64,000 nt of DNA, from positions 50,821-114,820 of the IMG/VR virus record IMGVR_UViG_3300029543_000174. One strand, 5' to 3'. Shown in pieces: positions 6,896 to 64,000 of this stretch. The notes under the pieces were generated by a model. That model searched no databases, was not told where the DNA came from, and saw only the letters and a list, made by a program, of their open reading frames with translations. The DNA comes from a virus (lineage: Duplodnaviria; Heunggongvirae; Uroviricota; Caudoviricetes). Made by a program: the position numbers and the translations under genes. Each line of letters opens with the position of its first letter. Within the stretch, counting starts at the first letter, position 1.

Positions 6896-8023
6896 ATGAA
6901 TTTTAAATGTGATACTCAAATAATCAAAAGTGCTTGTGCCTCGGCTTCAAAGGCATCAAGCGTAAAAGCAACAATCCCAACATTAAAAGGATTACTTCTC
7001 GAAGCAAAGGAAAATTGTCTTACAATTACAGGCTATGATTTACAGCTTGGAATTAAAAAGTCAATTACTGCTGAGGTAAGCGACACCGGAGCAATTATTG
7101 TTGATGCAACAATGCTCAATAATATTCTCTCAAAAGTAAAAGGAAATACGGTTGAATTTGCTCTTGAAAACAATAACCTTGTAAGAATTAAATCAGGTAG
7201 GGCAAGATTTAAAATCAATGGCATTAACGCAGAAGACTTCCCGGAGATTCCGGCAGTGACAGGTGAAAACTTTTCTCTTACTGAAAAAGATTTTCTCAAA
7301 ATGATTTCAGTTCCGATTTTCGCTGCTGCTGATGAATGTCAGCAAAAGCCTATTTCTACAGGATTAAACTTTGAACTTTCGGATGGTTGTCTTACTACAT
7401 ACGCTCTTGACGGCTATCGTTTAGCTTTATACAGATTATTTAATGATTTTGTAGGTTCATACAGCTTCACAGTGCCTAAAAGAACGATTAAATGTATCAG
7501 TAAAGAAATAAGCGATTCAGAAGAAAAAATCGTCAATATAACGCTCTCTGCCAATCATATCCATATTGTAACAGATGAATATGATTTCTTTAGCAGATTG
7601 CTTGAAGGTGAAAGATTTAATTATAAGAATGCCATTCCTAACAAGTTCGTTTTTGAAACAATAATTGATGTTGACAGCACAGCCGAATCAATAAATTGTT
7701 GTGCACCTATAATCGAAAGTTCACAAAAGAATCCGATTCGTTGTGAATTTAACGGTAATCAATTAAATATTAAAACGAAATCCGTACTTGGTGAGGTCGA
7801 AGATACAATTGATATTGAGACAACAATGCAAGAAACACCTGTAACTATCGGTTTTAATGCTAAATATCTTTTAGAGGCATTAAATAATATCCCACCTGAA
7901 CACAGTACGGTTACATACAAGCTTGCAGGACCGGTTTCTCCGAGCGTTATTGTTCCTAATAAGGATGATGATTCAAACGAAAAATTCTTATTTATGGTGC
8001 TTCCTATGAGGTTAAAGAACTAA
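6896..8023 (+). CDS. dnaN: DNA polymerase III beta subunit-like sliding clamp
   Basis: 375 aa. The N-terminus MNFKCDTQ...IPTLKGLLLEAKENCLTITGYDLQLGIKKSITAEV follows the DnaN consensus (ref. tLPiL-L-a--g-L-ltgTDLE). Confidence 0.8.
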   Translation: MNFKCDTQIIKSACASASKASSVKATIPTLKGLLLEAKENCLTITGYDLQLGIKKSITAEVSDTGAIIVDATMLNNILSKVKGNTVEFALENNNLVRIKSGRARFKINGINAEDFPEIPAVTGENFSLTEKDFLKMISVPIFAAADECQQKPISTGLNFELSDGCLTTYALDGYRLALYRLFNDFVGSYSFTVPKRTIKCISKEISDSEEKIVNITLSANHIHIVTDEYDFFSRLLEGERFNYKNAIPNKFVFETIIDVDSTAESINCCAPIIESSQKNPIRCEFNGNQLNIKTKSVLGEVEDTIDIETTMQETPVTIGFNAKYLLEALNNIPPEHSTVTYKLAGPVSPSVIVPNKDDDSNEKFLFMVLPMRLKN

Positions 8024-8065
8024 TATTACCACTTGTATTTCATCACGATTCTAAAAAAATAAAAA

Positions 8066-8084
8066 TTGCGTGATATATATAGTG
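8066..8084 (+). promoter_or_regulatory. short-form promoter-like core TTGCGTGATATATATAGTG
   Basis: Same core as the other 14 copies. Lies directly upstream of the GC-rich island. Confidence 0.4.
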
Positions 8085-8139
8085 TAAGCAGAAAAATTTA
8101 ATACAGTTCCTTTTATGGCTTTTTGGGGAAATAAAATAA

Positions 8140-8550
8140 TCAAAAAGAGTATCACCAAGCTTAACTATAAAATTGGTGGGGCGGGGCGAAAGCGGCTTGA
8201 CCAAGTAACCCTGTCCTGAGCGGTGAAGTTCTTCCATACCGTTGCCTAAGTCAACTAAGTTGATATGGTTAAAAGGAAGAGGATGGAATTCAATAGAGTT
8301 CTGGGAACTGCCGGTGAGTGGAAACACTCAACAATGAGGGATCTGTACCATTGAGGCAGGTTAGATATTGGTCTAACAACTCGTCAAGTGTCCGATCAAG
8401 CGGTTTAGCGACGGCGACGGCATAAGCTGTTTTTGTCATTTTTACTGTAATGAAGAGGGGAAGGAGTTTCTTCAAATGCCCTTGGGGAAACTCTGTCCTC
8501 TCTTCACAGTACGCTCTGGTTCTGGCATCGGTTCTTAGAAGATACATAGG
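8140..8550. ncRNA. candidate structured non-coding RNA (GC-rich island; class and strand unknown)
   Basis: About 400 nt with GC content far above the ~30% GC flanks (GGTGGGGCGGGGCGAAAGCGGC...GGCGACGGCGACGGC...). Only two low-complexity minus-strand ORFs cover it. No RBS, and it sits in a 626-nt intergenic gap. Confidence 0.3.
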
Positions 8551-8649
8551 AAATAAGTAGGAAGATAATAAAGATGGATATTATATATAGTAATTTATAA
8601 TATATAGGACTGAAAAATTTTTAAAAATAAAAATAAAAAGGAGAAAAAT

Positions 8650-9168
8650 ATGTTTAATTTACAAGATGTGGCAAACGAATATCGACGTCTGGACCAAATT
8701 CTTAATGTTGACACAAGCAATATTGATTTAGTGCACTTCGCCGGTGTTTTTCGATGTGGATATTGTTCCGTTTGTGGAGAAAAATCAATTAAAATTGGAA
8801 TTAATGATTTGGTCTTTGAGTGTCCTGAAAATGAGTTTTACAATGTAATAAGACACGAATATGCTCATGCTGTTGATGCAATAAAATACAAAAACAGAGG
8901 ACATAGCCAAACTTGGAAACAAATTTGTAAAATAGTTGGCTGTATTCCATCGACACATATTCCTAAAAATTCAGAATTACAAAAGAAAGTTGAGCAATAC
9001 AATATGCAAACTGCAAAATACAAAATTACTTGTTCACATTGTGGTGAAGTTTATTACTATCAAAGAAAATCTTCTATTGTAAATGCTTATTATGCAGGAG
9101 CAAAACTTAAATGTCCTGTATGCCACAAGAAATTTTCAATTAATACGAACAAGGAAAATATTTCATAA
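8650..9168 (+). CDS. SprT-like zinc metallopeptidase-domain protein with C-terminal zinc ribbons
   Basis: HEYAHAVD (HExxH) plus three CxxC pairs. RBS AAGGAG. Confidence 0.5.
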   Translation: MFNLQDVANEYRRLDQILNVDTSNIDLVHFAGVFRCGYCSVCGEKSIKIGINDLVFECPENEFYNVIRHEYAHAVDAIKYKNRGHSQTWKQICKIVGCIPSTHIPKNSELQKKVEQYNMQTAKYKITCSHCGEVYYYQRKSSIVNAYYAGAKLKCPVCHKKFSINTNKENIS

Positions 9169-9186
9169 AAAATATTAAGCAGTAGG

Positions 9187-9212
9187 ATTATTCCTGCTGC
9201 TTATATGTACAC
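9187..9212 (+). terminator. hairpin AAGCAGTAGGATTATTCCTGCTGCTT
   Basis: Inverted repeat after the gene end, followed by an AT-rich tract. Confidence 0.4.
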
Positions 9213-39589: not shown

Positions 39590-39608
39590 CTTGCGCGATA
39601 AATATATA
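39590..39608 (+). promoter_or_regulatory. short-form promoter-like core TTGCGCGATAAATATATAG
   Basis: Same core as the other copies. Confidence 0.45.
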
Positions 39609-48769: not shown

Positions 48770-48824
48770 TTAAGTACAAATACAGCATCCCCGGATACGC
48801 TGATTAAACATTATCCGGGAATGT

Positions 48825-48911
48825 GACAATGTAGTTTAACGGTAAAACACAAAAGTTGTTTTTTTGATCCTCCTTCGACTTTTGGATGTAAGTTCAAATC
48901 TTACCATTGCC
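48825..48911 (+). tRNA. atypical tRNA-like gene (possible anticodon UGU; 21-nt variable arm; one acceptor-stem mismatch)
   Basis: Canonical T arm (GTAAG-TTCAAAT-CTTAC) and D arm (GTTT-AACGGTA-AAAC) by eye. The anticodon loop is ambiguous because of a T7 run. Confidence 0.3.
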
Positions 48912-48921
48912 AATAAGATAT

Positions 48922-49007
48922 GCTGATGTGATGGAATGGCAGACAGAAGAGACTTAAAATCTCTTGGTGGAAACATCGTGTGAGTTCGACTCTCACCATC
49001 AGCACCA
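48922..49007 (+). tRNA. tRNA-Leu (UAA), type II with long variable arm, CCA encoded
   Basis: Acceptor GCTGATG/CATCAGC. Anticodon stem AGAGA/TCTCT with loop CTTAAAA. T arm GTGAG-TTCGACT-CTCAC. Confidence 0.7.
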
Positions 49008-49355
49008 CTGCAGGGCCCAAGTGAAAGGTCTAAGAAGTTTCACAACGGTATAAGATATTTCTTGGCTGGTTTTTGCCGTGTGCTGGAATGCACTGAATCA
49101 ATAACCTTACAGACAGTATCAAAAAAGTTAGGACTTTTTGTATTGGAAGGGTTGCTGACCTTTCCGTAGTTTTTCTAATGATTTAAAGGAAGTTAAGCAA
49201 AAGTGTACATATTACTTTACTGAATTTAATCACCGTATTAACACGCTGATAGACAGTATTTCTCCCACAATTCGGGAAGTAAAGAGATCTATTGGTTGAA
49301 AGTAAATGGATACGGCAGAACAGTGCACATCTGCCGTATCACGATTATTAAATAC

Positions 49356-49430
49356 GCAGATATGATGTAATCGGTAGCATACAACTCTTCCACAGTTGGT
49401 GTGCGAGTTCAAACCTCGTTATCTGCTCCA
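49356..49430 (+). tRNA. tRNA-Gly (UCC), CCA encoded
   Basis: Acceptor GCAGATA/TATCTGC. Anticodon stem CAACT/AGTTG with loop CTTCCAC. T arm GCGAG-TTCAAAC-CTCGT. Confidence 0.75.
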
Positions 49431-49436
49431 AAATAT

Positions 49437-49512
49437 TCTCCATTAGTTCAGAAGGTAGAACGGTAGACTGTTAATCTATATGTCATTGGTTCAAATCCAA
49501 TATGGAGAGCCA
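49437..49512 (+). tRNA. tRNA-Asn (GUU), CCA encoded
   Basis: Acceptor TCTCCAT/ATGGAGA. D arm GTTC-AGAAGGTA-GAAC. Anticodon loop CTGTTAA. T arm ATTGG-TTCAAAT-CCAAT. Confidence 0.8.
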
Positions 49513-49515
49513 AAC

Positions 49516-49591
49516 GGACCGTTAGCTTAGTAGGTAAAGCAACCGGCTCATAACCGGTAAACCATGGGTTCAAATCCTATACGGTCCACCA
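49516..49591 (+). tRNA. tRNA-Met (CAU) (elongator-type; Ile2/lysidine alternative not excluded)
   Basis: Acceptor GGACCGT/ACGGTCC with 1-72 paired. D arm GCTT-AGTAGGTA-AAGC. Anticodon stem ACCGG/CCGGT with loop CTCATAA. Confidence 0.8.
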
Positions 49592-49594
49592 TAT

Positions 49595-49670
49595 GTGTCA
49601 TTAGCTCAGTAGGTAGAGCAACAGACTTTTAATTTGCAGGTCAAGGGTTCAATTCCCTTATGACACACCA
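49595..49670 (+). tRNA. tRNA-Lys (UUU), CCA encoded
   Basis: Acceptor GTGTCAT/ATGACAC. D arm GCTC-AGTAGGTA-GAGC. Anticodon loop CTTTTAA, with one A-C mismatch in the anticodon stem. T arm AAGGG-TTCAATT-CCCTT. Confidence 0.7.
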
Positions 49671-52191: not shown

Positions 52192-52269
52192 ACTTTTTTG
52201 TAAATCTAAAAAGCACCATAGAATTTTGATTTTCTATGGTGCTTTTTTATTTTTCTAAAAATAAAAAAC

Positions 52270-52288
52270 TTGCGCGATATATATATTG
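52270..52288 (+). promoter_or_regulatory. short-form promoter-like core TTGCGCGATATATATATTG
   Basis: First of four tandem copies in 52.2-52.7 kb. Followed by a strong RBS and a 34-aa peptide gene. Confidence 0.5.
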
Positions 52289-52311
52289 AACGAAGCAGTT
52301 AGGAGGAATGT

Positions 52312-52416
52312 TATGACACTTACAGGAAACATAATTTTGCTGATTGTATGTTCAATTACATTTATTGCAAGTTTGACGGCTCTCATTTTGAGAAGTGTCA
52401 AAAAACACAAAAAATG
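52312..52416 (+). CDS. small hydrophobic peptide (34 aa)
   Basis: TTAGGAGGAATG RBS. Sequence MTLTGNIILLIVCSITFIASLTALILRSVKKHKK. Confidence 0.3.
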
Positions 52417-52446
52417 AAAAAATTTAATATTCAAAAATTTTAAAAA

Positions 52447-52465
52447 GTTGCGCGATATATAAAGT
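52447..52465 (+). promoter_or_regulatory. short-form promoter-like core TTGCGCGATATATAAAGTG
   Basis: Tandem copy 2. Confidence 0.45.
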
Positions 52466-52536
52466 GAAAGGTGAATAACACTCATTTGATATTAGAAATT
52501 TGGAGCTTGATTATAACCTTTCTGAAAATAAAAAAA

Positions 52537-52555
52537 TTGCGCGATATAGAAAATG
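52537..52555 (+). promoter_or_regulatory. short-form promoter-like core TTGCGCGATATAGAAAATG
   Basis: Tandem copy 3. Confidence 0.45.
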
Positions 52556-52673
52556 GTGAGGTTAAACCGCACTGGCGTAAATATCGTATTGAAAATTATA
52601 AAAAATCAAATAGAACCTGCTTTGAGTGTATATTTTGAGGATTTGTATTTGATTTTATGAAAAAAAATTTTCT

Positions 52674-52692
52674 TGCGCGATATCTTAAGTGA
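52674..52692 (+). promoter_or_regulatory. short-form promoter-like core TTGCGCGATATCTTAAGTG
   Basis: Tandem copy 4. Confidence 0.45.
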
Positions 52693-52932
52693 CAGCACTA
52701 ATAATCGAGCTGTTCAAAAGGCTGGATAAGCCGTTATTATGATTGTTTTAGTCTGAATATTACATAAAAATACTTGAATTAAAGGGTTTATACAAACATT
52801 GTTATTTACTCTTCGGGCAAAAATAATTCACTTTTTTGATGATATCAGGCTTGAACATATATCTATTCAATGCATCTAAACAAAATACTACTTTCCGCAT
52901 TGGAAATCTAATGAAAGGAGAACATATAGTAC

Positions 52933-53100
52933 ATGAAAACTATTTTCGAGGAATACGGTACAGTAATCATCGTTGCAATTGCTATCGTTGCTCTTATTGC
53001 TATCGTAACATTTATCCTTGGCGATGACCAGATTAAGGGCAAGTTCAAGGATCTTGTAACAAGCTTCTTCAATCAGGTTAAGTTTGACGCAGCAGCTTAA
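52933..53100 (+). CDS. Flp-like pilin candidate (55 aa)
   Basis: AAAGGAGAA RBS. MKTIFEEYGTVIIVAIAIVALIAIV has an EY-G motif followed by a hydrophobic helix, as in Flp prepilins (ref. IEYGLIAALIAV). Confidence 0.4.
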   Translation: MKTIFEEYGTVIIVAIAIVALIAIVTFILGDDQIKGKFKDLVTSFFNQVKFDAAA

Positions 53101-53212: not shown

Positions 53213-54508
53213 ATGGGAATTTTTAGTAAGAAAAATAATGATTTAGAGAATATAGAAAATACAGAAATCGTTACTCTGATAGAAGAAAAGAAAGAGAAAA
53301 CGGAATCTCAGATTATAAATGAGATGCAAAAGGATTATTTATCTAAAAGAGAAAATCTTGGCGATTGGGATTTAGAGCCTAAAGATTTCGGACCGGTATG
53401 GAGTTATGTTGCAGATGAAAATGTCACAGATATTAACTTGAATATGGACGGTCACGATTTGTGGATTACTGATTTAAACAAGGGTAAATATCGAGTTGAA
53501 CCGGAAACATTTAAACAAAAATGTGATGAATGGTTAGAAACACAGGATGCACTTGAATTTGGAAATACAGAGCAGCAGGATTCAAACAGTTTATTTGTAA
53601 AGCAATTCGTACACAGAGTTGGTAATAAGCAAAGTAGGCAATTTAATAAACAAAAACCGTTACTTGAAGCAGAAACAGGAAATCTTCGTATATCGTGCGT
53701 TCATTCATCTGCGGCAGTATCTGGTATATCAATATGTATAAGAAAAACACCACCTGTAATGAGAATTACACCTAAAAAAGCGTTAGAGCAAAAATATTTT
53801 ACAGAAGATATTTTGTGTTTGCTAACCAATTGCGTTAAGGCAAAAATGAATTTTGTCTTTTGCGGTGAACCGGGTGTAGGTAAAACAGAATGTGCAAAAT
53901 TCTTTTCCCAATTTATTAATGCTGAGGATAGAGTTATTACAATCGAAGATAACCCTGAATTACACTACAGAGAAATTAATCCCGGCAAGGATTGTGTTGA
54001 ATTGAAAGTATTTGAGCCTATGTTTACATACAGTACAGCTATTAAGGCTTGCCTTCGTCAAAACCCTCAATGGATTATGCTTTCTGAGGCACGTTCAACA
54101 GAAGTTAAATATCTTCTTGAATGTTGGTCAACCGGTGTATCAGGTTTTACTACACTTCATACTGATGATGTAAGAAAAATTCCGGACCGTATCCAAAACA
54201 TGATGGGAGATAGCAGAGATGCCGAAAGACTTGAAAATGATATTTTTTCTTTCGTAAATATTGGAATACTACTTCGTAAAAAGAAGGATGAAAACGGCAA
54301 TACATATCGTTATATTGATCAAGTTTGCTTTTTTGATAGAAGTAATGGTAAAAACAATATTGTGATGATGGTTGAAAACGGACAAATGATTAACAACAAT
54401 GGAGAAAAACCAAAAATTCCTGACTATATTTTAAAGCGGTTAAGCTTTGTGGATATAACTGATCCTTATTCGGGATTAAACGAAATTTTGAAGGGAGAAA
54501 AAGATTAA
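53213..54508 (+). CDS. CpaF/TadA (VirB11-family) secretion ATPase
   Basis: Walker A CGEPGVGKTE, RQNPQWIMLSEAR (ref. RxxPDxIxvGEiR), and a His box TLHTDD. Confidence 0.7.
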   Translation: MGIFSKKNNDLENIENTEIVTLIEEKKEKTESQIINEMQKDYLSKRENLGDWDLEPKDFGPVWSYVADENVTDINLNMDGHDLWITDLNKGKYRVEPETFKQKCDEWLETQDALEFGNTEQQDSNSLFVKQFVHRVGNKQSRQFNKQKPLLEAETGNLRISCVHSSAAVSGISICIRKTPPVMRITPKKALEQKYFTEDILCLLTNCVKAKMNFVFCGEPGVGKTECAKFFSQFINAEDRVITIEDNPELHYREINPGKDCVELKVFEPMFTYSTAIKACLRQNPQWIMLSEARSTEVKYLLECWSTGVSGFTTLHTDDVRKIPDRIQNMMGDSRDAERLENDIFSFVNIGILLRKKKDENGNTYRYIDQVCFFDRSNGKNNIVMMVENGQMINNNGEKPKIPDYILKRLSFVDITDPYSGLNEILKGEKD

Positions 54509-60295: not shown

Positions 60296-63200
60296 ATGAA
60301 GAAAACGTTGAGTTTTTTACTTGCTTTTGCATTGATATTTTCAACTGTAATTGTACCTGTATCTGCTTTTGCTGATACGGATTTTTCAAATTATTCTAAA
60401 TATGTTTATGATTCAAATTCTGATCCTATTGACTACAATAAAGTAGCAGTATTCAAAGATTATGACGAATTGGAAAAATACATTCAATCTCTTAATTTAA
60501 AATTGGAAAATAAGCCTGAATTAATTGATGGATTAGTGTGCTATATTACGTCCGGATATGGTGGATATGGTTCAGATCAAGATTATGATAAACCTTTAGT
60601 AATATCTTTAGGCTATGGTCCGACAAATACTTTCGATGATGGCATTTATGATCAGGCTCTTGCAGGACCGTATTCTGTTAAATTATATCCTATTAAATCA
60701 AATTACATGAGCGATTGTCTTTTTCAAGTTCGTGTTGATAATGGCATTTACACAACCGAACAAATCAATGAATATTATAAAACAATAAAAAGAGCTTTTG
60801 ACGAAATGGACCTTTATGATAAGTCTGATTATGCAAAGGCTACTTCTATTGTTTCTTGGATTGGTAATAATATTAGTTATAACGATGATAATTATCAAAA
60901 TGTTGCAACGGCTATGCTTATCAATAAAGACGGTATCTGTTCTGGATTTTCAAGTTTAGTTAATTATTTTTGTAATATAGTAGGAATTGAAAGTTATGAA
61001 ATGGGTAGTATAGCTCATTCATGGAATGTGTTAAAAATCAACGGTAAATATTATTTCACAGATTGTTCTAATATTATTACTGCAAGGCTTATGTCAGCTA
61101 AAGATTTTGGACGTGTAGATGAAAAGACTTGGGTTGGCGGACAATCAAATGATTATTATATTGAAATGATCAACACAGCTCCATATGTCAAATTGCATAT
61201 CGTAGATGAGGAAACATGGAATGATCCGGGTTGGAAGTCTTTAAAGCAGTTTGTTCTTGACTTTATGGATAATCTTACGTTAGTTGGTATTGATACTATA
61301 GGTCTTGTTGGAGACACTCGTTATCACACACATTCCTCTCCGTATACAATTAGTAAAACTAAAATAAAAAAATCAAATTCATCTTCAAATAATTTAATTT
61401 CTGATGATAATTGCAATCTTAAATATGAAAACATTGACGAGAAATTTACTCAAACCAGTAAATGTAGTGTCAATGGCTATATGACAGGCTATTTTACCGA
61501 TAGAACAGCATATTATACTGACAATGATGTTATAACAGAAAATGCACGTCCTATTAAAGATTGTATCCTTAACGGTAATACCGGCGATAAAGCAGTTAAA
61601 CTTACCACAAAGGAAACTCAGGTTGACCAGTTTGATAACCCAACTGATAAAACTGTTAATTTCACGGAAAACCGTGTAATTGAAACCGGTAAAGTTATAA
61701 AGAACAACAAGACTTCTCATAATTATTACAAGAGGACAATCAAAAATTATACTTGTGATAAAGATACCGTAATTGAATTTGTATGTAAGGATTGTGGTGA
61801 AAGATTTTGTCTTGTAAAATATTGTGATAATCATCAGTTTAAAACTTATGTTGACGTTACACCAAATACATGTACTTCTGACGGCAAAATTAACATTTAT
61901 GATGGAAACGCAACGGATTATGATTTTAAGTCGAAGTCTTTTAAAGGTGTTTCATTGAACAAGCTTAATCATAATATTAAGACTGAGGTTGTTGATAATG
62001 GTACATTAGAAAGAACTTATTGTGATAATACTTCTAATGAAATCACATTAACAACCGATGATATTAAAAATAATCTTATGAATTGCTTGTATTCCAGCGA
62101 TTATGACGGTGTAGACGATTTAAAGTGGAATAAAACTCAAGACCGTAGATTTTGGGAATTTAATTGTGATAATCAAAATGGTCAAACACCGACTATTACA
62201 ATGAAACTCCTCGCTAAAGGTATCAGTGACGGTGTAAGCAATTATGGCACATCTCTTTACTTCACAATTAAAGATGATAAAACGAATGAAGTAAAGACAT
62301 ATAATTTCTGTTATAACGACAAAACGAAAGTAGCAACTCTTACCAATGTAAATGATAAGACTGATGTATTACCGGCTGAAGCAAAAATTGATGGTGTAAC
62401 CATTACTCTCAGTGTTAAGGCTAATTCGGTATATAAGAGATATGGTTATAGTTACTCTTATCTTAACGGAAGATTTTACGAAATAAGAACCAATGGCGCA
62501 TTTTCGGATATGTTTGGTACAAACTGTTATATCAAATTTACATACGATAATTGTAATTATGAAACTACTAAAGAGTTAGATCATTTTTATCAGGAAAGTA
62601 ACAGAACACCTGCTTCTTGTACCAAAGAGGGTACAGTAGAGTATACTTGTAAGCACTGTGGTGCTAAGAAATATGATACTTTACCATTAGCAGAACATAC
62701 TGCTATAATTCAAAATAAAAAGGATTCTACGTGTGCTGAGGAAGGCTATACAGGTGATACTGTTTGTAGTGTATGTGGTAAAACACTCAAAAAGGGAACA
62801 GCAGTTCCTAAAAAGGACCACACGTATAAGATTACAACCGTAAGTGCTAATTGTACTTCTCAGGGTTATGATGAATACACTTGTATTTATTGTGGCTATT
62901 CGTATAAAACAAATTATGTAGAACCTAACGGTAAGCACGTTCCTAAATATGGTGTAAACAAAAAGGAAGCAACTTGTACCGAAAAGGGCTACACCGGTGA
63001 TACGGTTTGTACTGTTTGTAACAAAGTGATTGAAAAGGGTAGTGAAACAAATCCTAAAAATCACAGCTATGTTCTTACAACTGTATCTGCAACGTGTGTA
63101 TCTGAGGGATACGACCTTTATACTTGCTCAAATTGTGGTGATTCATATAAAACAAATATTGTTGCACCAAATAACAAACACACAGTTGTAGTTGACAAGG

Positions 63201-64000
63201 CAGTTCCTGCTACTTGTACTACTGATGGATACACTGCCGGTACCCATTGTTCGGTATGTAATAAAGTTATTTCTGCTCAAAAGGTTATTAAGGCTACAGG
63301 ACATAAGCCTACCAAAATTGCTGCTGTACCTGCTACTTGTTCTTCTACCGGACTAACGGAGGGTTCAGTATGCTCTGTATGTAAAACAGTATTGGTAGAA
63401 CAAAAGGTTGTTCCTGCACTTGACCATAAATGGGATAACGGTACTGTTACCGTTGAACCGACTTGTACAAAGGAAGGTAAAAAGGTTTATCATTGTGTTA
63501 ATTGCAATGAAACTATGATTGAATCAATCGGTAAAACAAATCATTCGTTTGGTAATAATCTTCCTAATTGTTCAGTATGTGGCGCTGCTAATCCAAATTA
63601 TGTAGCGCCAACAAAGCCAACTGAACATACTACAAAGCCTGCTGCTCCTTCACAGCCGCCACAGGCACCGATTCAGCCGAGTGTAATACCAAATGCTCCT
63701 GCTACAACAACACCTGTTCCTGTGCCTACACAGGCTCCTACAAGAGCTGTAGTAAAGGTATCAAAGCCTAAAAAGACTAAAATCAAAAAGGTAAAGGCTG
63801 CTAAGAAAGCATTAGCAGTTACTTGGAACAAAGTATCCGGCGTAAAAGGTTATCAAGTACAGGTTGCAACGGATAAAAAGTTCAAAAAGAACAAGAAAAC
63901 TGTTACAATCAAGAAACAGAAAACAACTAAGACAACCGTAAAGAAGCTTAAAGCTAAGAAAAAGTATTACGTAAGAGTAAGAACTTACAAAACTGTAAAG
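60296..64000 (+). CDS. giant secreted protein: transglutaminase-like cysteine-protease core, at least 8 Cys-rich ~32-aa repeats (ATC..GYTGDTVC.VC.K), Pro-rich linker, shared Fn3-like tail; 3' end beyond window
   Basis: Frame 2 is open from 60296 to the window end; I translated it and found no stop. Signal peptide MKKTLSFLLAFALIFSTVIVPVSAFA. GICSGFS...HSWNV...TDCS forms a Cys/His/Asp triad. Confidence 0.6.
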   Translation, partial: MKKTLSFLLAFALIFSTVIVPVSAFADTDFSNYSKYVYDSNSDPIDYNKVAVFKDYDELEKYIQSLNLKLENKPELIDGLVCYITSGYGGYGSDQDYDKPLVISLGYGPTNTFDDGIYDQALAGPYSVKLYPIKSNYMSDCLFQVRVDNGIYTTEQINEYYKTIKRAFDEMDLYDKSDYAKATSIVSWIGNNISYNDDNYQNVATAMLINKDGICSGFSSLVNYFCNIVGIESYEMGSIAHSWNVLKINGKYYFTDCSNIITARLMSAKDFGRVDEKTWVGGQSNDYYIEMINTAPYVKLHIVDEETWNDPGWKSLKQFVLDFMDNLTLVGIDTIGLVGDTRYHTHSSPYTISKTKIKKSNSSSNNLISDDNCNLKYENIDEKFTQTSKCSVNGYMTGYFTDRTAYYTDNDVITENARPIKDCILNGNTGDKAVKLTTKETQVDQFDNPTDKTVNFTENRVIETGKVIKNNKTSHNYYKRTIKNYTCDKDTVIEFVCKDCGERFCLVKYCDNHQFKTYVDVTPNTCTSDGKINIYDGNATDYDFKSKSFKGVSLNKLNHNIKTEVVDNGTLERTYCDNTSNEITLTTDDIKNNLMNCLYSSDYDGVDDLKWNKTQDRRFWEFNCDNQNGQTPTITMKLLAKGISDGVSNYGTSLYFTIKDDKTNEVKTYNFCYNDKTKVATLTNVNDKTDVLPAEAKIDGVTITLSVKANSVYKRYGYSYSYLNGRFYEIRTNGAFSDMFGTNCYIKFTYDNCNYETTKELDHFYQESNRTPASCTKEGTVEYTCKHCGAKKYDTLPLAEHTAIIQNKKDSTCAEEGYTGDTVCSVCGKTLKKGTAVPKKDHTYKITTVSANCTSQGYDEYTCIYCGYSYKTNYVEPNGKHVPKYGVNKKEATCTEKGYTGDTVCTVCNKVIEKGSETNPKNHSYVLTTVSATCVSEGYDLYTCSNCGDSYKTNIVAPNNKHTVVVDKAVPATCTTDGYTAGTHCSVCNKVISAQKVIKATGHKPTKIAAVPATCSSTGLTEGSVCSVCKTVLVEQKVVPALDHKWDNGTVTVEPTCTKEGKKVYHCVNCNETMIESIGKTNHSFGNNLPNCSVCGAANPNYVAPTKPTEHTTKPAAPSQPPQAPIQPSVIPNAPATTTPVPVPTQAPTRAVVKVSKPKKTKIKKVKAAKKALAVTWNKVSGVKGYQVQVATDKKFKKNKKTVTIKKQKTTKTTVKKLKAKKKYYVRVRTYKTVK

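What the first reader, a model, noticed from the sequence alone, without database searches (positions are those of the whole stretch)
8140..8550. GC-rich, ORF-free island of about 400 nt downstream of dnaN: candidate large structured RNA
The composition departs sharply from the ~30% GC context. It has G-runs and GNRA-like tetraloops (GGGGCGGGGCGAAAGCGGC), GGCGACGGCGACGGC, and many short inverted repeats. There is no RBS. The only ORFs are two overlapping minus-strand ORFs with low-complexity products. A short-form promoter core (8066-8084) sits directly upstream on the + strand. Large phage genomes often carry structured RNAs such as GOLLD, ROOL, group I introns or tmRNA-like RNAs. I could not match this island to a known class by eye.
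Basis: seen in the sequence. Interest (0 to 1): 0.7.

Follow-up and report, generated by a model that had tools for sequence, protein, structure and literature searches.

The report
New large structured RNA after dnaN
The GC-rich gap after dnaN most likely encodes a conserved non-coding RNA of about 450 nt that matches no catalogued RNA family, carries a textbook RNA docking motif, and has an unknown function in a giant mobile element of the human gut.

Summary
The island is real. GC reaches 0.47-0.50 against a window mean of 0.31, and it sits at the same place in 25 independent assemblies. It is not protein-coding. The two minus-strand ORFs are fragmented in a divergent relative, have no homologues outside this element, and change almost only non-synonymously.

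The evidence points to a + strand RNA of roughly 8090-8540. Its core is 82-93% identical to a relative whose dnaN is only 62.5% identical at DNA level. A 112-pair model is 98.7% paired, with 10 double-sided compensatory pairs against 1.2 in shuffles. The RNA has an invariant canonical 11-nt GAAA-tetraloop receptor (CCUAAG 8245-8250 / UAUGG 8264-8268) and a conserved GAAA loop (8321-8324). A promoter-like motif upstream recurs at five other + strand sites, four of them checked to lie between ORFs.

No Rfam 15 family matches, and ARAGORN finds no tRNA or tmRNA there. Only three lineages of the RNA were found, so the covariation rests mainly on one divergent sequence.

Function is unknown. My best guess is an independently transcribed, compactly folded RNA acting in trans. 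The host element looks as much like a giant plasmid as like a phage.

The parts
8055..8083 (+). Promoter-like element: an A-rich tract followed by TTGCGTGATATATATAGT (8066-8083)
   Evidence: The motif recurs on the + strand at 39591, 52270, 52448, 52537 and 52673: 8 matches against 1.5 expected. The four copies at 52270-52690 lie between ORFs; 39591 falls between listed ORFs of at least 90 aa. At 52270 it lies about 43 nt before an RBS and ATG. It is conserved upstream of the RNA in L011 and L012. Promoter function is inferred.
8090..8540 (+). Candidate non-coding RNA of about 450 nt; the conserved core is about 8117-8538 and the ends are inferred from conservation only
   Evidence: Window versus L012 identity is 0.82-0.93 in the 40-nt bins starting at 8224, 8264, 8304 and 8344 (that is, 8224-8383) and 0.93 in the bin starting at 8144, but 0.57 in the bin starting at 8184; dnaN is 0.625. 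RNA fold z-scores are -5.5 on + against -2.35 on -. For L012 they are -3.07 against -0.96. There is no Rfam, tRNA or tmRNA match.
8119..8147 (+). H0: A/U-rich hairpin CUUUUUG / CAAAAAG
   Evidence: 7 pairs. L012 keeps the hairpin with one bulged A. Support is weak.
8153..8178 (+). H1: hairpin CACCAA / UUGGUG with a conserved 14-nt loop GCUUAACUAUAAAA
   Evidence: The stem is invariant in all lineages, so it gives no covariation information. It lies in a stretch of about 47 nt with only two changes between window and L012.
8179..8216 (+). H2: G-rich stem (8179-8186 / 8209-8216) with a variable apical part that includes the GAAA at 8188-8191
   Evidence: One compensatory pair and one one-sided change; two pairs become U-U in L012. 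The apical GAAA is AAAA in L021 and absent in L012, where a GUAA loop appears in a neighbouring hairpin.
8219..8388 (+). Core domain: a multi-helix junction closed by the long-range helix GGUGA 8222-8226 / UCGUC 8381-8385
   Evidence: In the closing helix G-U becomes G-C and U-G becomes U-A in L012. MFE folds of the window and L012 cores give the same set of inner helices (H3, receptor hairpin, H4, H5/H6, H8). L012 is closed exactly by GGUGA/UCACC; in the window a nearby but different register was predicted. A covariance model of this domain scores 214, 213 and 177 bits in the three lineages, which were all in the training set.
8229..8281 (+). H3 (8229-8235 / 8275-8281) carrying the receptor arm
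   Evidence: 7 pairs, 6 of them invariant and 1 broken in L012.
8245..8268 (+). Canonical 11-nt GAAA-tetraloop receptor, CCUAAG 8245-8250 / UAUGG 8264-8268, capped by hairpin 8251-8263
   Evidence: The pattern CCTAAG-N(8-30)-TATGG occurs once in 64 kb on both strands, and it is here. The 11 nt are invariant while the capping helix covaries (C-G to U-A, A-U to G-U) and its loop changes from UAA to GUAA. The wild-type receptor is written CCUAAG_UAUGG by inference from the mutant names in PMC11381326 and from my own knowledge.
8286..8301 (+). H4: hairpin GAAUUC-AAUA-GAGUUC
   Evidence: The hairpin is predicted in both lineages but in a shifted register. In the column-wise count 2 pairs are broken in L012.
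8308..8359 (+). Three-way junction: H5 (8308-8312 / 8355-8359), H6 (8315-8320 / 8325-8330) capped by the conserved GAAA at 8321-8324, and H7 (8332-8336 / 8349-8353) with a 12-nt loop
   Evidence: H6 has a compensatory U-A to C-G change. H7 has G-C to G-U. H5 is invariant. The GAAA is invariant in all lineages. Its docking into the receptor is inferred.
8360..8377 (+). H8: hairpin GUUAGAU-AUUG-GUCUAAC, directly abutting H5
   Evidence: The only change is A-U to G-U in the L001 and L021 variants.
8239..8244 (+). 5' half of a candidate pseudoknot (CCGUUG), proposed to pair with CGACGG at 8409-8414
   Evidence: 6 complementary bases, invariant in all lineages, so neither supported nor refuted by covariation. 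The local hairpin that competes for 8416-8431 in the window is deleted in L012.
8409..8414 (+). 3' half of the candidate pseudoknot: the first copy of the CGACGG tandem repeat
   Evidence: Only the first copy is conserved in L012, which reads CGACGG CGAUAG.
8444..8510 (+). H9: long 3' hairpin of about 28 bp with internal loops
   Evidence: The 23-pair inner helix has 6 compensatory and 6 one-sided changes, and 98.9% of cells are paired. Five G-U pairs argue for the + strand.
8516..8531 (+). H10: short hairpin followed by UUCUUAG; a possible weak 3' end element
   Evidence: One compensatory and three one-sided changes. It is not among the terminator-like sites found by the scan.
8043..8547 (-). 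Two overlapping minus-strand ORFs (94 aa and 85 aa), judged not to be genes
   Evidence: They are fragmented into ORFs of 42 aa or less in L012. There is no Pfam hit. An exhaustive HMMER search of 1.84 billion proteins with the 85-aa ORF finds only the same ORF, at 93% identity. Across five variants the changed codons total 2 synonymous and 16 non-synonymous (0-1 against 2-6 per variant). L011 loses the start codon and gains a stop.

Best explanation
The island is the gene for a non-coding RNA of about 450 nt, made from the + strand at roughly 8090-8540.

Shown:
- The region is not protein-coding.
- It is under stronger purifying selection than the flanking genes.
- The helices tolerate only pair-preserving changes.
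- An invariant canonical 11-nt GAAA-tetraloop receptor and a conserved GAAA loop lie in the same 170-nt core domain.

Inferred:
- Transcription starts a few bases downstream of an element-specific promoter motif (TTGCGYGATATATA).
- The GAAA loop at 8321-8324 docks into the receptor at 8245-8250/8264-8268. Together with a possible CCGUUG:CGACGG pseudoknot, this would lock a compact tertiary fold.
- The RNA acts in trans as a folded RNA (a scaffold for a protein, an RNA-only assembly or a ribozyme) during early establishment or replication of the giant element, and not as a leader for one particular downstream gene.

The biochemical activity is unknown.
For: Existence and reproducibility: (25 loci).

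Not coding. In addition, no gene was called in the gap in any of 10 metagenome contigs.

Selection: the core is 82-93% identical to L012, while dnaN is 62.5% and the downstream 178-aa gene is 69%.

Strand: RNA fold z-scores are -5.5 on + against -2.35 on -, and for L012 -3.07 against -0.96. Many helices contain G-U pairs.

Structure: of 112 pairs, 98.7% of cells are paired. Ten pairs show double-sided change, against 1.2 +/- 1.1 in shuffles (0 of 500 reach 10) and 0-4 in the slid controls. Among close variants, 13 of 18 variable sites are unpaired, and 4 of the 5 paired-site changes keep the pair.

Tertiary motif: the receptor pattern is unique in 64 kb. It is invariant while its capping helix covaries.

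Promoter.

Independence from the downstream gene: the next gene is SprT-like in the window, RNase H in L011 and a 178-aa membrane protein in L012.
Against: Only three lineages were found, so nearly all compensatory changes come from the single sequence L012. The shuffle control does not correct for relatedness, and no R-scape-grade statistic is possible.

There are no expression data, and the transcript ends are inferred only from conservation. No convincing intrinsic terminator follows the RNA, so read-through into the downstream operon is possible.

The three downstream genes belong to one syntenic block with deletions, so a leader role for that block is not excluded. Tetraloop-receptor docking and the pseudoknot are invariant and therefore untested by covariation. 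H4 and parts of H2 are imperfect in L012.
Confidence: 0.6

Rival explanations
1. The RNA is a long structured 5' leader, a cis-regulator of the downstream operon (SprT-like, RNase H1, 178-aa membrane protein). It would sense a ligand, protein or temperature and control read-through or translation.
For: It is on the same strand as the downstream genes, and the scan found no terminator-like site at the RNA's 3' end. The three different downstream genes all belong to one syntenic block seen complete in the window. A leader for that block is therefore compatible with the data.
Against: A second promoter-like A/T-rich element (GATATTATATATAGT) lies between the RNA and the next gene. The 100-nt spacer after the RNA is poorly conserved and of variable length. 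No riboswitch, T-box or leader family of Rfam matches. At 450 nt with a tetraloop-receptor core, it is far larger than typical leaders. No terminator/antiterminator alternative was seen.
Confidence: 0.15
2. The RNA is a replication pre-primer that forms an R-loop, in the manner of ColE1 RNA II. A G-rich transcript would form a persistent hybrid and be processed by the element's RNase H1 to prime DNA synthesis.
For: It lies in a replication module between dnaN and, in the window and L011, an RNase H1 with a hybrid-binding domain. It has its own promoter. The RNA strand is G-rich, with GC skew of +0.15 to +0.24.
Against: GC skew is uniformly positive and genes are co-oriented over the whole 64 kb, with no switch at 8.1-8.5 kb. 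RNase H is absent from the short L012 contig, where the membrane-protein gene follows directly. Neither an invariant RNA tertiary docking motif nor selection on many separate helices is a known requirement of an R-loop primer (my own knowledge). The promoter scan lists no minus-strand promoter-like site inside the island that could make an antisense RNA I-like regulator.
Confidence: 0.07
3. The element acts as single-stranded DNA. It would be a single-strand origin or priming site, or an Frpo-type ssDNA promoter used when the element enters a new cell by conjugation.
For: The neighbourhood is rich in genes typical of the early-entering region of conjugative elements: MPTase-PolyVal, LPD11, DUF2958/YodL, DUF3848 and PcfJ. 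Folding the + strand with DNA parameters also gives z = -4.3.
Against: The 11-nt receptor with a GAAA tetraloop is an RNA tertiary motif. The helices contain many G-U pairs and drift along G-C / G-U / A-U paths. The strand that folds well is the sense strand, whereas an Frpo-type promoter would be expected on the template strand (my own knowledge), which folds poorly at z = -2.1. The TAGCGA hexamer is not conserved in L012.
Confidence: 0.05
4. The island is a protein-coding gene or a decayed fragment of one acquired from a GC-richer genome, or it is an assembly artefact.
For: Two minus-strand ORFs of 85 and 94 aa exist. One pipeline called the 85-aa ORF as a protein (P0241).
Against: The ORFs are fragmented in L012. 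There is no Pfam hit. Among 1.84 billion representative proteins there is no homologue except the same locus. Changed codons in the 85-aa ORF total 2 synonymous against 16 non-synonymous across five variants, and L011 loses the start codon and gains a stop. A decaying fragment would not be more conserved than dnaN. The identical placement in 25 assemblies excludes a chimera.
Confidence: 0.02

Closest known systems
GOLLD and ROOL RNAs (large 'ornate' RNAs of phages and prophages)
   Same: These are large, elaborately structured non-coding RNAs of unknown function carried by mobile elements of bacteria. They are encoded as stand-alone genes and not as gene leaders (PMC12286853).
   Different: There is no match to either Rfam model, even at E=10. 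This RNA is about 450 nt, whereas many GOLLD members exceed 800 nt. It is not next to the tRNA island, which lies 40 kb away at 48.8-49.7 kb. I saw no conserved palindromic loop that would suggest homo-oligomer formation. That was checked by eye only, so oligomerisation is untested.
OLE and raiA motif RNAs (large ncRNAs of anaerobic Firmicutes)
   Same: Like this RNA they are large, strongly conserved ncRNAs whose biochemistry is unresolved. They occur in Firmicutes, which is the likely host range here, given that the closest bacterial DnaN homologues are from Eubacterium and Clostridium.
   Different: There is no match to either Rfam model. OLE and raiA are chromosomal and widespread. This RNA is confined to one clade of a giant mobile element.
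P4-P6-type domain of group I introns, and other self-folding RNAs that use the 11-nt receptor (group II intron domain I, RNase P)
   Same: It uses the identical tertiary module, a CCUAAG/UAUGG receptor plus a GAAA tetraloop on a nearby helix within one multi-helix domain (receptor sequence inferred from mutant names in PMC11381326). That group I and II introns and RNase P use this motif is from my own knowledge (Costa and Michel 1995; Cate et al. 1996).
   Different: It is not an intron. dnaN is complete upstream, and the next gene has its own start codon and a GGAG Shine-Dalgarno-like sequence. There is no match to the Rfam group I, group II or RNase P models.
Unannotated RNA-like element in human-gut contigs with bacterial-type flanking genes (L076 type)
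   Same: It shares a nearly identical 33-nt module, ACCNUUGCCUAAGUCAA...UUGAUAUGGUUAAAA, which scores 16.9 bits against model positions 20-56.
   Different: Nothing else aligns by nhmmer, blastn or the covariance model. Its context is different, lying between an IS21-like transposase and a penicillin-binding-protein-like gene. I read it as a shared module and not as a family member.

Membership tests
Any Rfam 15 family (4227 models, including GOLLD, ROOL, OLE, raiA, HEARO, group I and II introns, RNase P, tmRNA, 6S, SRP and the self-cleaving ribozymes) | Score at or above the family's gathering cut-off against its covariance model | tested here: not met
   At gathering cut-offs the whole window gives only 6 tRNAs at 48.8-49.7 kb. 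In E-value mode up to E=10 on 7500-9200, on 8086-8545 and on the L012 homologue, the only hits are scattered miRNA, snoRNA and similar models at 13-25 bits, far below their cut-offs.
tmRNA / tRNA-like RNAs | A tRNA-like acceptor/T-arm domain, plus a tag reading frame for tmRNA | tested here: not met
   ARAGORN finds no tRNA or tmRNA in 8000-8700.
Group I intron | Interrupts a host gene, with flanking exons that are joined after splicing | tested here: not met
   dnaN upstream is full length: 375 aa, all three DnaN Pfam domains, and homologues of 365-380 aa aligned over 99-100%. The downstream genes start with their own ATG, preceded by a GGAG Shine-Dalgarno-like sequence.
Group I intron | Conserved catalytic core (P3-P8, P4-P6, G-binding P7) recognised by the Rfam model | tested here: not met
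   No hit even at E=10.
GOLLD / ROOL | The family-specific consensus secondary structure | tested here: not met
   No covariance-model match.
GOLLD / ROOL | Frequent location next to tRNA islands (typical but not defining) | tested here: not met
   The nearest tRNA is at 48824, about 40 kb away.
GOLLD / ROOL / OLE | Homo-oligomeric RNA-only assembly | not testable with these tools
   This needs native gels, SEC-MALS or cryo-EM. By eye I found no conserved palindromic loop. The GGAUCU in the H7 loop becomes GCAUCU in L012.
RNAs using the 11-nt GAAA-tetraloop receptor (a structural motif, not a family) | 5'-CCUAAG-3' / 5'-UAUGG-3' on opposite strands of a helix, with C-G pairs below and a helix above | tested here: met
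   CCUAAG 8245-8250 and UAUGG 8264-8268 flank a 5-6 bp covarying helix. The pattern is unique in the window and invariant in all lineages.
RNAs using the 11-nt GAAA-tetraloop receptor (a structural motif, not a family) | A GAAA tetraloop elsewhere in the RNA that docks into the receptor | tested here: inconclusive
   A GAAA loop on a covarying 6-bp hairpin (8315-8330) is conserved in all lineages. The docking itself cannot be shown from sequence.
ColE1 RNA II-type replication primer | Lies at the origin, with replication starting at its 3' end | tested here: inconclusive
   There is no GC-skew or gene-orientation switch anywhere in the 64 kb. That argues against a bidirectional origin here but does not exclude unidirectional replication.
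ColE1 RNA II-type replication primer | An antisense regulator RNA (RNA I) from the opposite strand of its 5' part | tested here: inconclusive
   The sigma-70-type promoter scan lists no minus-strand site within 8090-8540; the four minus-strand sites it reports all lie at 8597-8674, downstream of the RNA. The scan covers only sigma-70-type promoters, and the element appears to use its own promoter type, so an antisense promoter of another class cannot be excluded.
Protein-coding gene | An ORF conserved among relatives with an excess of synonymous change | tested here: not met

The most novel reading that the evidence does not exclude
This is the founding member of a new class of large self-folding RNA, either a ribozyme or an RNA-only or RNP machine. 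It would be specific to giant extrachromosomal elements of human-gut Firmicutes, be made early from an element-specific promoter, and be needed for establishment or replication of the element in a new host cell.
Probability: 0.2. Interest if true: 0.8.

Novelty: new variant of a known kind. Interest (0 to 1): 0.6.

Why it matters
Bacterial and phage RNAs longer than about 300 nt with conserved tertiary structure are rare. The known ones have mostly turned out to be ribozymes, RNP cores or, recently, RNA-only cages.

This RNA is unusually easy to test. It has a short, well-defined core, a textbook tetraloop-receptor pair that can be mutated, and a recognisable promoter. It is also present in many human-gut metagenomes, on contigs up to 817 kb long.

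Knowing what it does could show how very large mobile elements establish or replicate themselves. It would also add a family to the RNA databases, so that this 450-nt gap stops being reported as empty or as a spurious ORF (one pipeline already called P0241).

Tried and rejected
Known RNA families. Rfam 15 at gathering cut-offs and at E up to 10, on the window and on L012, gave nothing. ARAGORN gave nothing.

More homologues.
- blastn of the gap against 50,697 GenBank phages: no match.
- Four IMG/VR pattern scans returned only the three known contigs plus chance hits. L010 is a high-GC chance match, and the 52 extra hits of a 16-mer have no nhmmer similarity.
- The JGI metagenome scan returned 3 window-type loci and 37 loci of an unrelated element that shares only the receptor hairpin.
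- The GTDB genome scan gave 2 hits in unrelated taxa, and nhmmer finds no similarity to the RNA in either.
- Protein-guided searches with DnaN, with the divergent DnaN P0003 and with the 178-aa neighbour each found only the same three lineages.

Antisense targets. The reverse complements of two conserved loops have no above-chance match in the window.

Other copies. nhmmer finds no second copy of the RNA in the window, only the promoter motif.

RNAalifold pairings I replaced. ACCGU/AUGGU conflicts with the receptor. UCGUC/GGCGA has a broken pair in L012. GCGGUGAAG/UUUACUGU has two broken pairs in L012.

The second GC island at 63.2-63.8 kb is coding.

A CsrA-type GGA-sponge idea was dropped. 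A rough count by eye gave about 12 GGA motifs against about 10 expected; this was not computed with a tool.
Full report
**Observation.** The stretch between the stop codon of dnaN (8023) and the next start codon (8650) contains a clear composition island. In 200-nt windows GC is 0.395-0.47 over 8100-8599, against 0.23-0.39 in the other windows between 5000 and 12000. In 150-nt windows it peaks at 0.50, against a window mean of 0.308 and sd 0.048. It is the strongest GC island that is neither tRNA nor coding. The other large island, at 63.2-63.8 kb, lies inside an ORF that runs off the window. The quoted G-run and GAAA string is exactly at 8178-8196. The second quoted string is one base off (AGCGACGGCGACGGC, 8407-8421). 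Two overlapping minus-strand ORFs of 94 and 85 aa and four short + strand ORFs exist. The same sequence follows dnaN in 25 loci from independent ENA, JGI/IMG-VR and Logan assemblies, so it is not a chimera.

**Not a protein.**
- In the most divergent relative (L012) the minus-strand ORFs break into pieces of 42 aa or less.
- Neither ORF hits Pfam.
- An exhaustive HMMER search of 1.84 billion representative proteins with the 85-aa ORF returns only the same ORF from the same element, at 93% identity.
- Among close variants the changed codons of the 85-aa ORF are almost all non-synonymous: 0 synonymous to 3 non-synonymous in L001 and L021, 1:2 in L003, 0:2 in L100 and 1:6 in L011.
- L011 also loses the start codon and gains an in-frame stop.
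- Gene callers left the gap empty in all ten metagenome contigs inspected.

**Relatives.** DnaN-guided look-ups found three lineages.
- The window clade: DnaN 99% identical, dozens of human-gut assemblies, contigs up to 817 kb.
- L011: DnaN 91% identical.
- L012: DnaN 53% identical.

Searches with the divergent DnaN and with the 178-aa neighbour found nothing further. Pattern scans of IMG/VR, JGI metagenomes and GTDB genomes, and blastn against GenBank phages, also added nothing. In all three lineages a gap of about 620 nt follows dnaN and aligns to the island. The gene after the gap differs: SprT-like in the window, RNase H1 in L011, and the homologue of the window's 178-aa membrane protein in L012.

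**Selection.** Between the window and L012, dnaN is 62.5% identical at DNA level and the 178-aa gene is 69%. The RNA is 93% identical in the 40-nt bin starting at 8144 and 82-93% over 8224-8383. It falls to 57% in the bin starting at 8184, which holds the variable top of H2. The spacers before and after are 35-55% identical. Against L011 the island is 95-100% identical over 8144-8503, while dnaN is 87%. A non-coding stretch that is more conserved than its coding neighbours is under direct selection.

**Strand and structure.** As RNA, the + strand folds with z = -5.5 and the - strand with z = -2.35. The L012 homologue gives -3.07 and -0.96. RNAalifold on four sequences already showed 12 pairs with compensatory change.

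I built a model by hand on alignment A6, which holds 8 distinct sequences. The model has these helices:
- hairpins H0 and H1;
- the G-rich stem H2;
- a core domain at 8219-8388, closed by GGUGA 8222-8226 / UCGUC 8381-8385, and containing H3 with the receptor arm, H4, a three-way junction (H5, H6, H7) and H8;
- a 3' hairpin H9 of about 28 bp;
- a short hairpin H10.

Counted on A6, 98.7% of 891 cells form standard pairs. Ten pairs have changes on both sides, against 1.2 +/- 1.1 in 500 shuffles (none reaches 10) and 0-4 when the partners are slid by 1-3 columns. MFE folds of the core alone recover the same inner helices in the window and in L012. L012 is closed exactly by GGUGA/UCACC, while the window's predicted closing helix sits in a nearby but different register. 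Within the close variants, 13 of 18 variable sites are unpaired, and 4 of the 5 paired-site changes keep the pair. In L012, 36 of 51 changed paired positions still pair.

Caveat: almost all double-sided changes come from one sequence, L012, and the shuffle control ignores relatedness. The structure is therefore well supported for H6, H9, H10, the receptor hairpin and the closing helix. It is only compatible with the data for the invariant helices H1, H5 and H8 and for the candidate pseudoknot CCGUUG 8239-8244 : CGACGG 8409-8414.

**Tertiary motif.** The arm carried by H3 reads 5'-CCUAAG-3' (8245-8250) ... 5'-UAUGG-3' (8264-8268) around a short helix. This is the canonical 11-nt GAAA-tetraloop receptor. 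I take the wild-type sequence CCUAAG_UAUGG from the mutant names in PMC11381326 and from my own knowledge. That group I and II introns and RNase P use it is also my own knowledge. The pattern occurs only here in 64 kb on both strands. Its 11 nucleotides are invariant in all lineages. The capping helix covaries (C-G to U-A, A-U to G-U) and its loop changes from UAA to the GNRA loop GUAA.

A GAAA tetraloop on a covarying 6-bp hairpin (8315-8330) in the same domain is invariant, and it is the likely docking partner (inference).

**Transcription signals.** The motif TTGCGTGATATATATAGT (8066-8083), preceded by an A-rich tract, is conserved upstream of the RNA in L011 and L012. It recurs on the + strand at 39591, 52270, 52448, 52537 and 52673, for 8 matches in all against 1.5 expected. 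The four copies at 52270-52690 lie between ORFs. At 52270 the motif lies about 43 nt before an RBS and ATG. It does not fit the sigma-70 spacing, so I read it as an element-specific promoter type (inference). No convincing intrinsic terminator follows the RNA. The 3' end near 8540 is placed only by the loss of conservation.

**Comparison with known families.** No Rfam 15 model matches at its gathering cut-off or at E up to 10, on the window or on L012. ARAGORN finds nothing here.

The RNA is not an intron. dnaN is complete: it aligns over its full length to homologues of 365-380 aa. The downstream gene has its own start.

It resembles GOLLD, ROOL, OLE and raiA in kind, being a large conserved stand-alone RNA of unknown function on a mobile element or in Firmicutes (PMC12286853). 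It shares neither sequence nor structure model with them, and it is not near the tRNA island at 48.8-49.7 kb.

**Rivals.**
- Leader of the downstream operon. This remains possible (about 0.15), because there is no terminator and the varying downstream genes belong to one syntenic block.
- RNA II-like R-loop primer. The dnaN/RNase H context and the G-rich transcript suggest it. The uniformly positive GC skew, the co-oriented genes and the tertiary motif argue against it (about 0.07).
- Single-stranded-DNA element (sso or Frpo type). The conjugative-type neighbourhood suggests it. The RNA-specific motif, the G-U-rich helices and the strand argue against it (about 0.05).
- Coding or artefact. Effectively excluded.

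**Context.** The window carries the following families:
- polyvalent-protein and conjugation-linked modules: MPTase-PolyVal, LPD11, DUF2958/YodL, DUF3848 and PcfJ;
- surface and secretion genes: BspA-type LRR proteins and a T2SSE-type ATPase next to a small hydrophobic ORF that I read as Flp-pilin-like (my reading of the sequence);
- two DNA methylases and a RecG-like helicase;
- thymidine kinase, DnaN and RNase H1;
- two phage-type YopX proteins.

IMG/VR lists three contigs of this element as viral. The gene content fits a giant plasmid or conjugative element at least as well as a phage.

**Verdict.** It is a new RNA family of a known general kind, with a narrow distribution and an unknown function.

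Confidence:
- a functional structured RNA: about 0.9;
- an independent, trans-acting folded RNA: about 0.6;
- any specific biochemical role: low.

Noticed in passing
L076:3680-5207 (and 36 other human-gut contigs, L075-L113): An ORF-poor stretch of about 1.5 kb lies between an IS21-like transposase and a penicillin-binding-protein-like gene. It carries a nearly identical receptor hairpin module, ACCUUUGCCUAAGUCAAAACAUUGCCAAUGUUUUGAUAUGGUUAAAA, and several GAAA-containing stretches. The only Rfam hit at E up to 1 is LOOT, at 19 bits against a cut-off of 46. Nothing beyond the 33-nt module resembles the window RNA. It may be another unannotated structured RNA.
   Followed up: partly
window 52240-52700 and 39591-39608: Four copies of the promoter-like motif (A-rich tract plus TTGCGCGATAT...) lie within 450 nt, at 52270, 52448, 52537 and 52673. 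The first is followed by a small ORF (ATG at about 52314) encoding a hydrophobic peptide. A fifth copy is at 39591. The motif looks like an element-specific promoter class that does not fit sigma-70 spacing.
   Followed up: partly
window 1-64000; contigs of L013-L022: The host element reaches 500-817 kb in several assemblies. It carries many genes typical of conjugative plasmids or ICEs (MPTase-PolyVal, LPD11, DUF2958/YodL, DUF3848, PcfJ, a T2SSE ATPase at 53213-54508 next to a small hydrophobic ORF at about 52934-53100, read by eye from the sequence as Flp-pilin-like, and BspA LRR proteins), alongside phage-type YopX. The only structural hit is a weak head-scaffold match. The phage label from IMG/VR may be wrong.
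   Followed up: partly
window 8650-9168: The SprT-like gene is only 79-81% identical in protein between the window and contigs whose DnaN is 98-99% identical and whose RNA is about 99% identical. It is absent in L011 and L012. This looks like a local hot spot of replacement right after the RNA.
   Followed up: partly
window 48824-49670: A cluster of six tRNA genes (Thr, Leu, Gly, Asn, Met, Lys). The tRNA-Thr is predicted at 90 nt, which is unusually long for a Thr tRNA.
   Followed up: no
window 62900-64000: A second GC-rich stretch (63.2-63.8 kb, GC up to 0.52) lies inside a long + strand ORF that runs off the window end. By eye its translation shows repeated Cys-containing modules and a Pro/Ala/Thr-rich linker. 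It is coding, not RNA.
   Followed up: partly
window 8409-8420: A tandem direct repeat, CGACGG CGACGG. Only the first copy is conserved in L012 (CGACGG CGAUAG). The first copy is complementary to the invariant CCGUUG at 8239-8244.
   Followed up: partly
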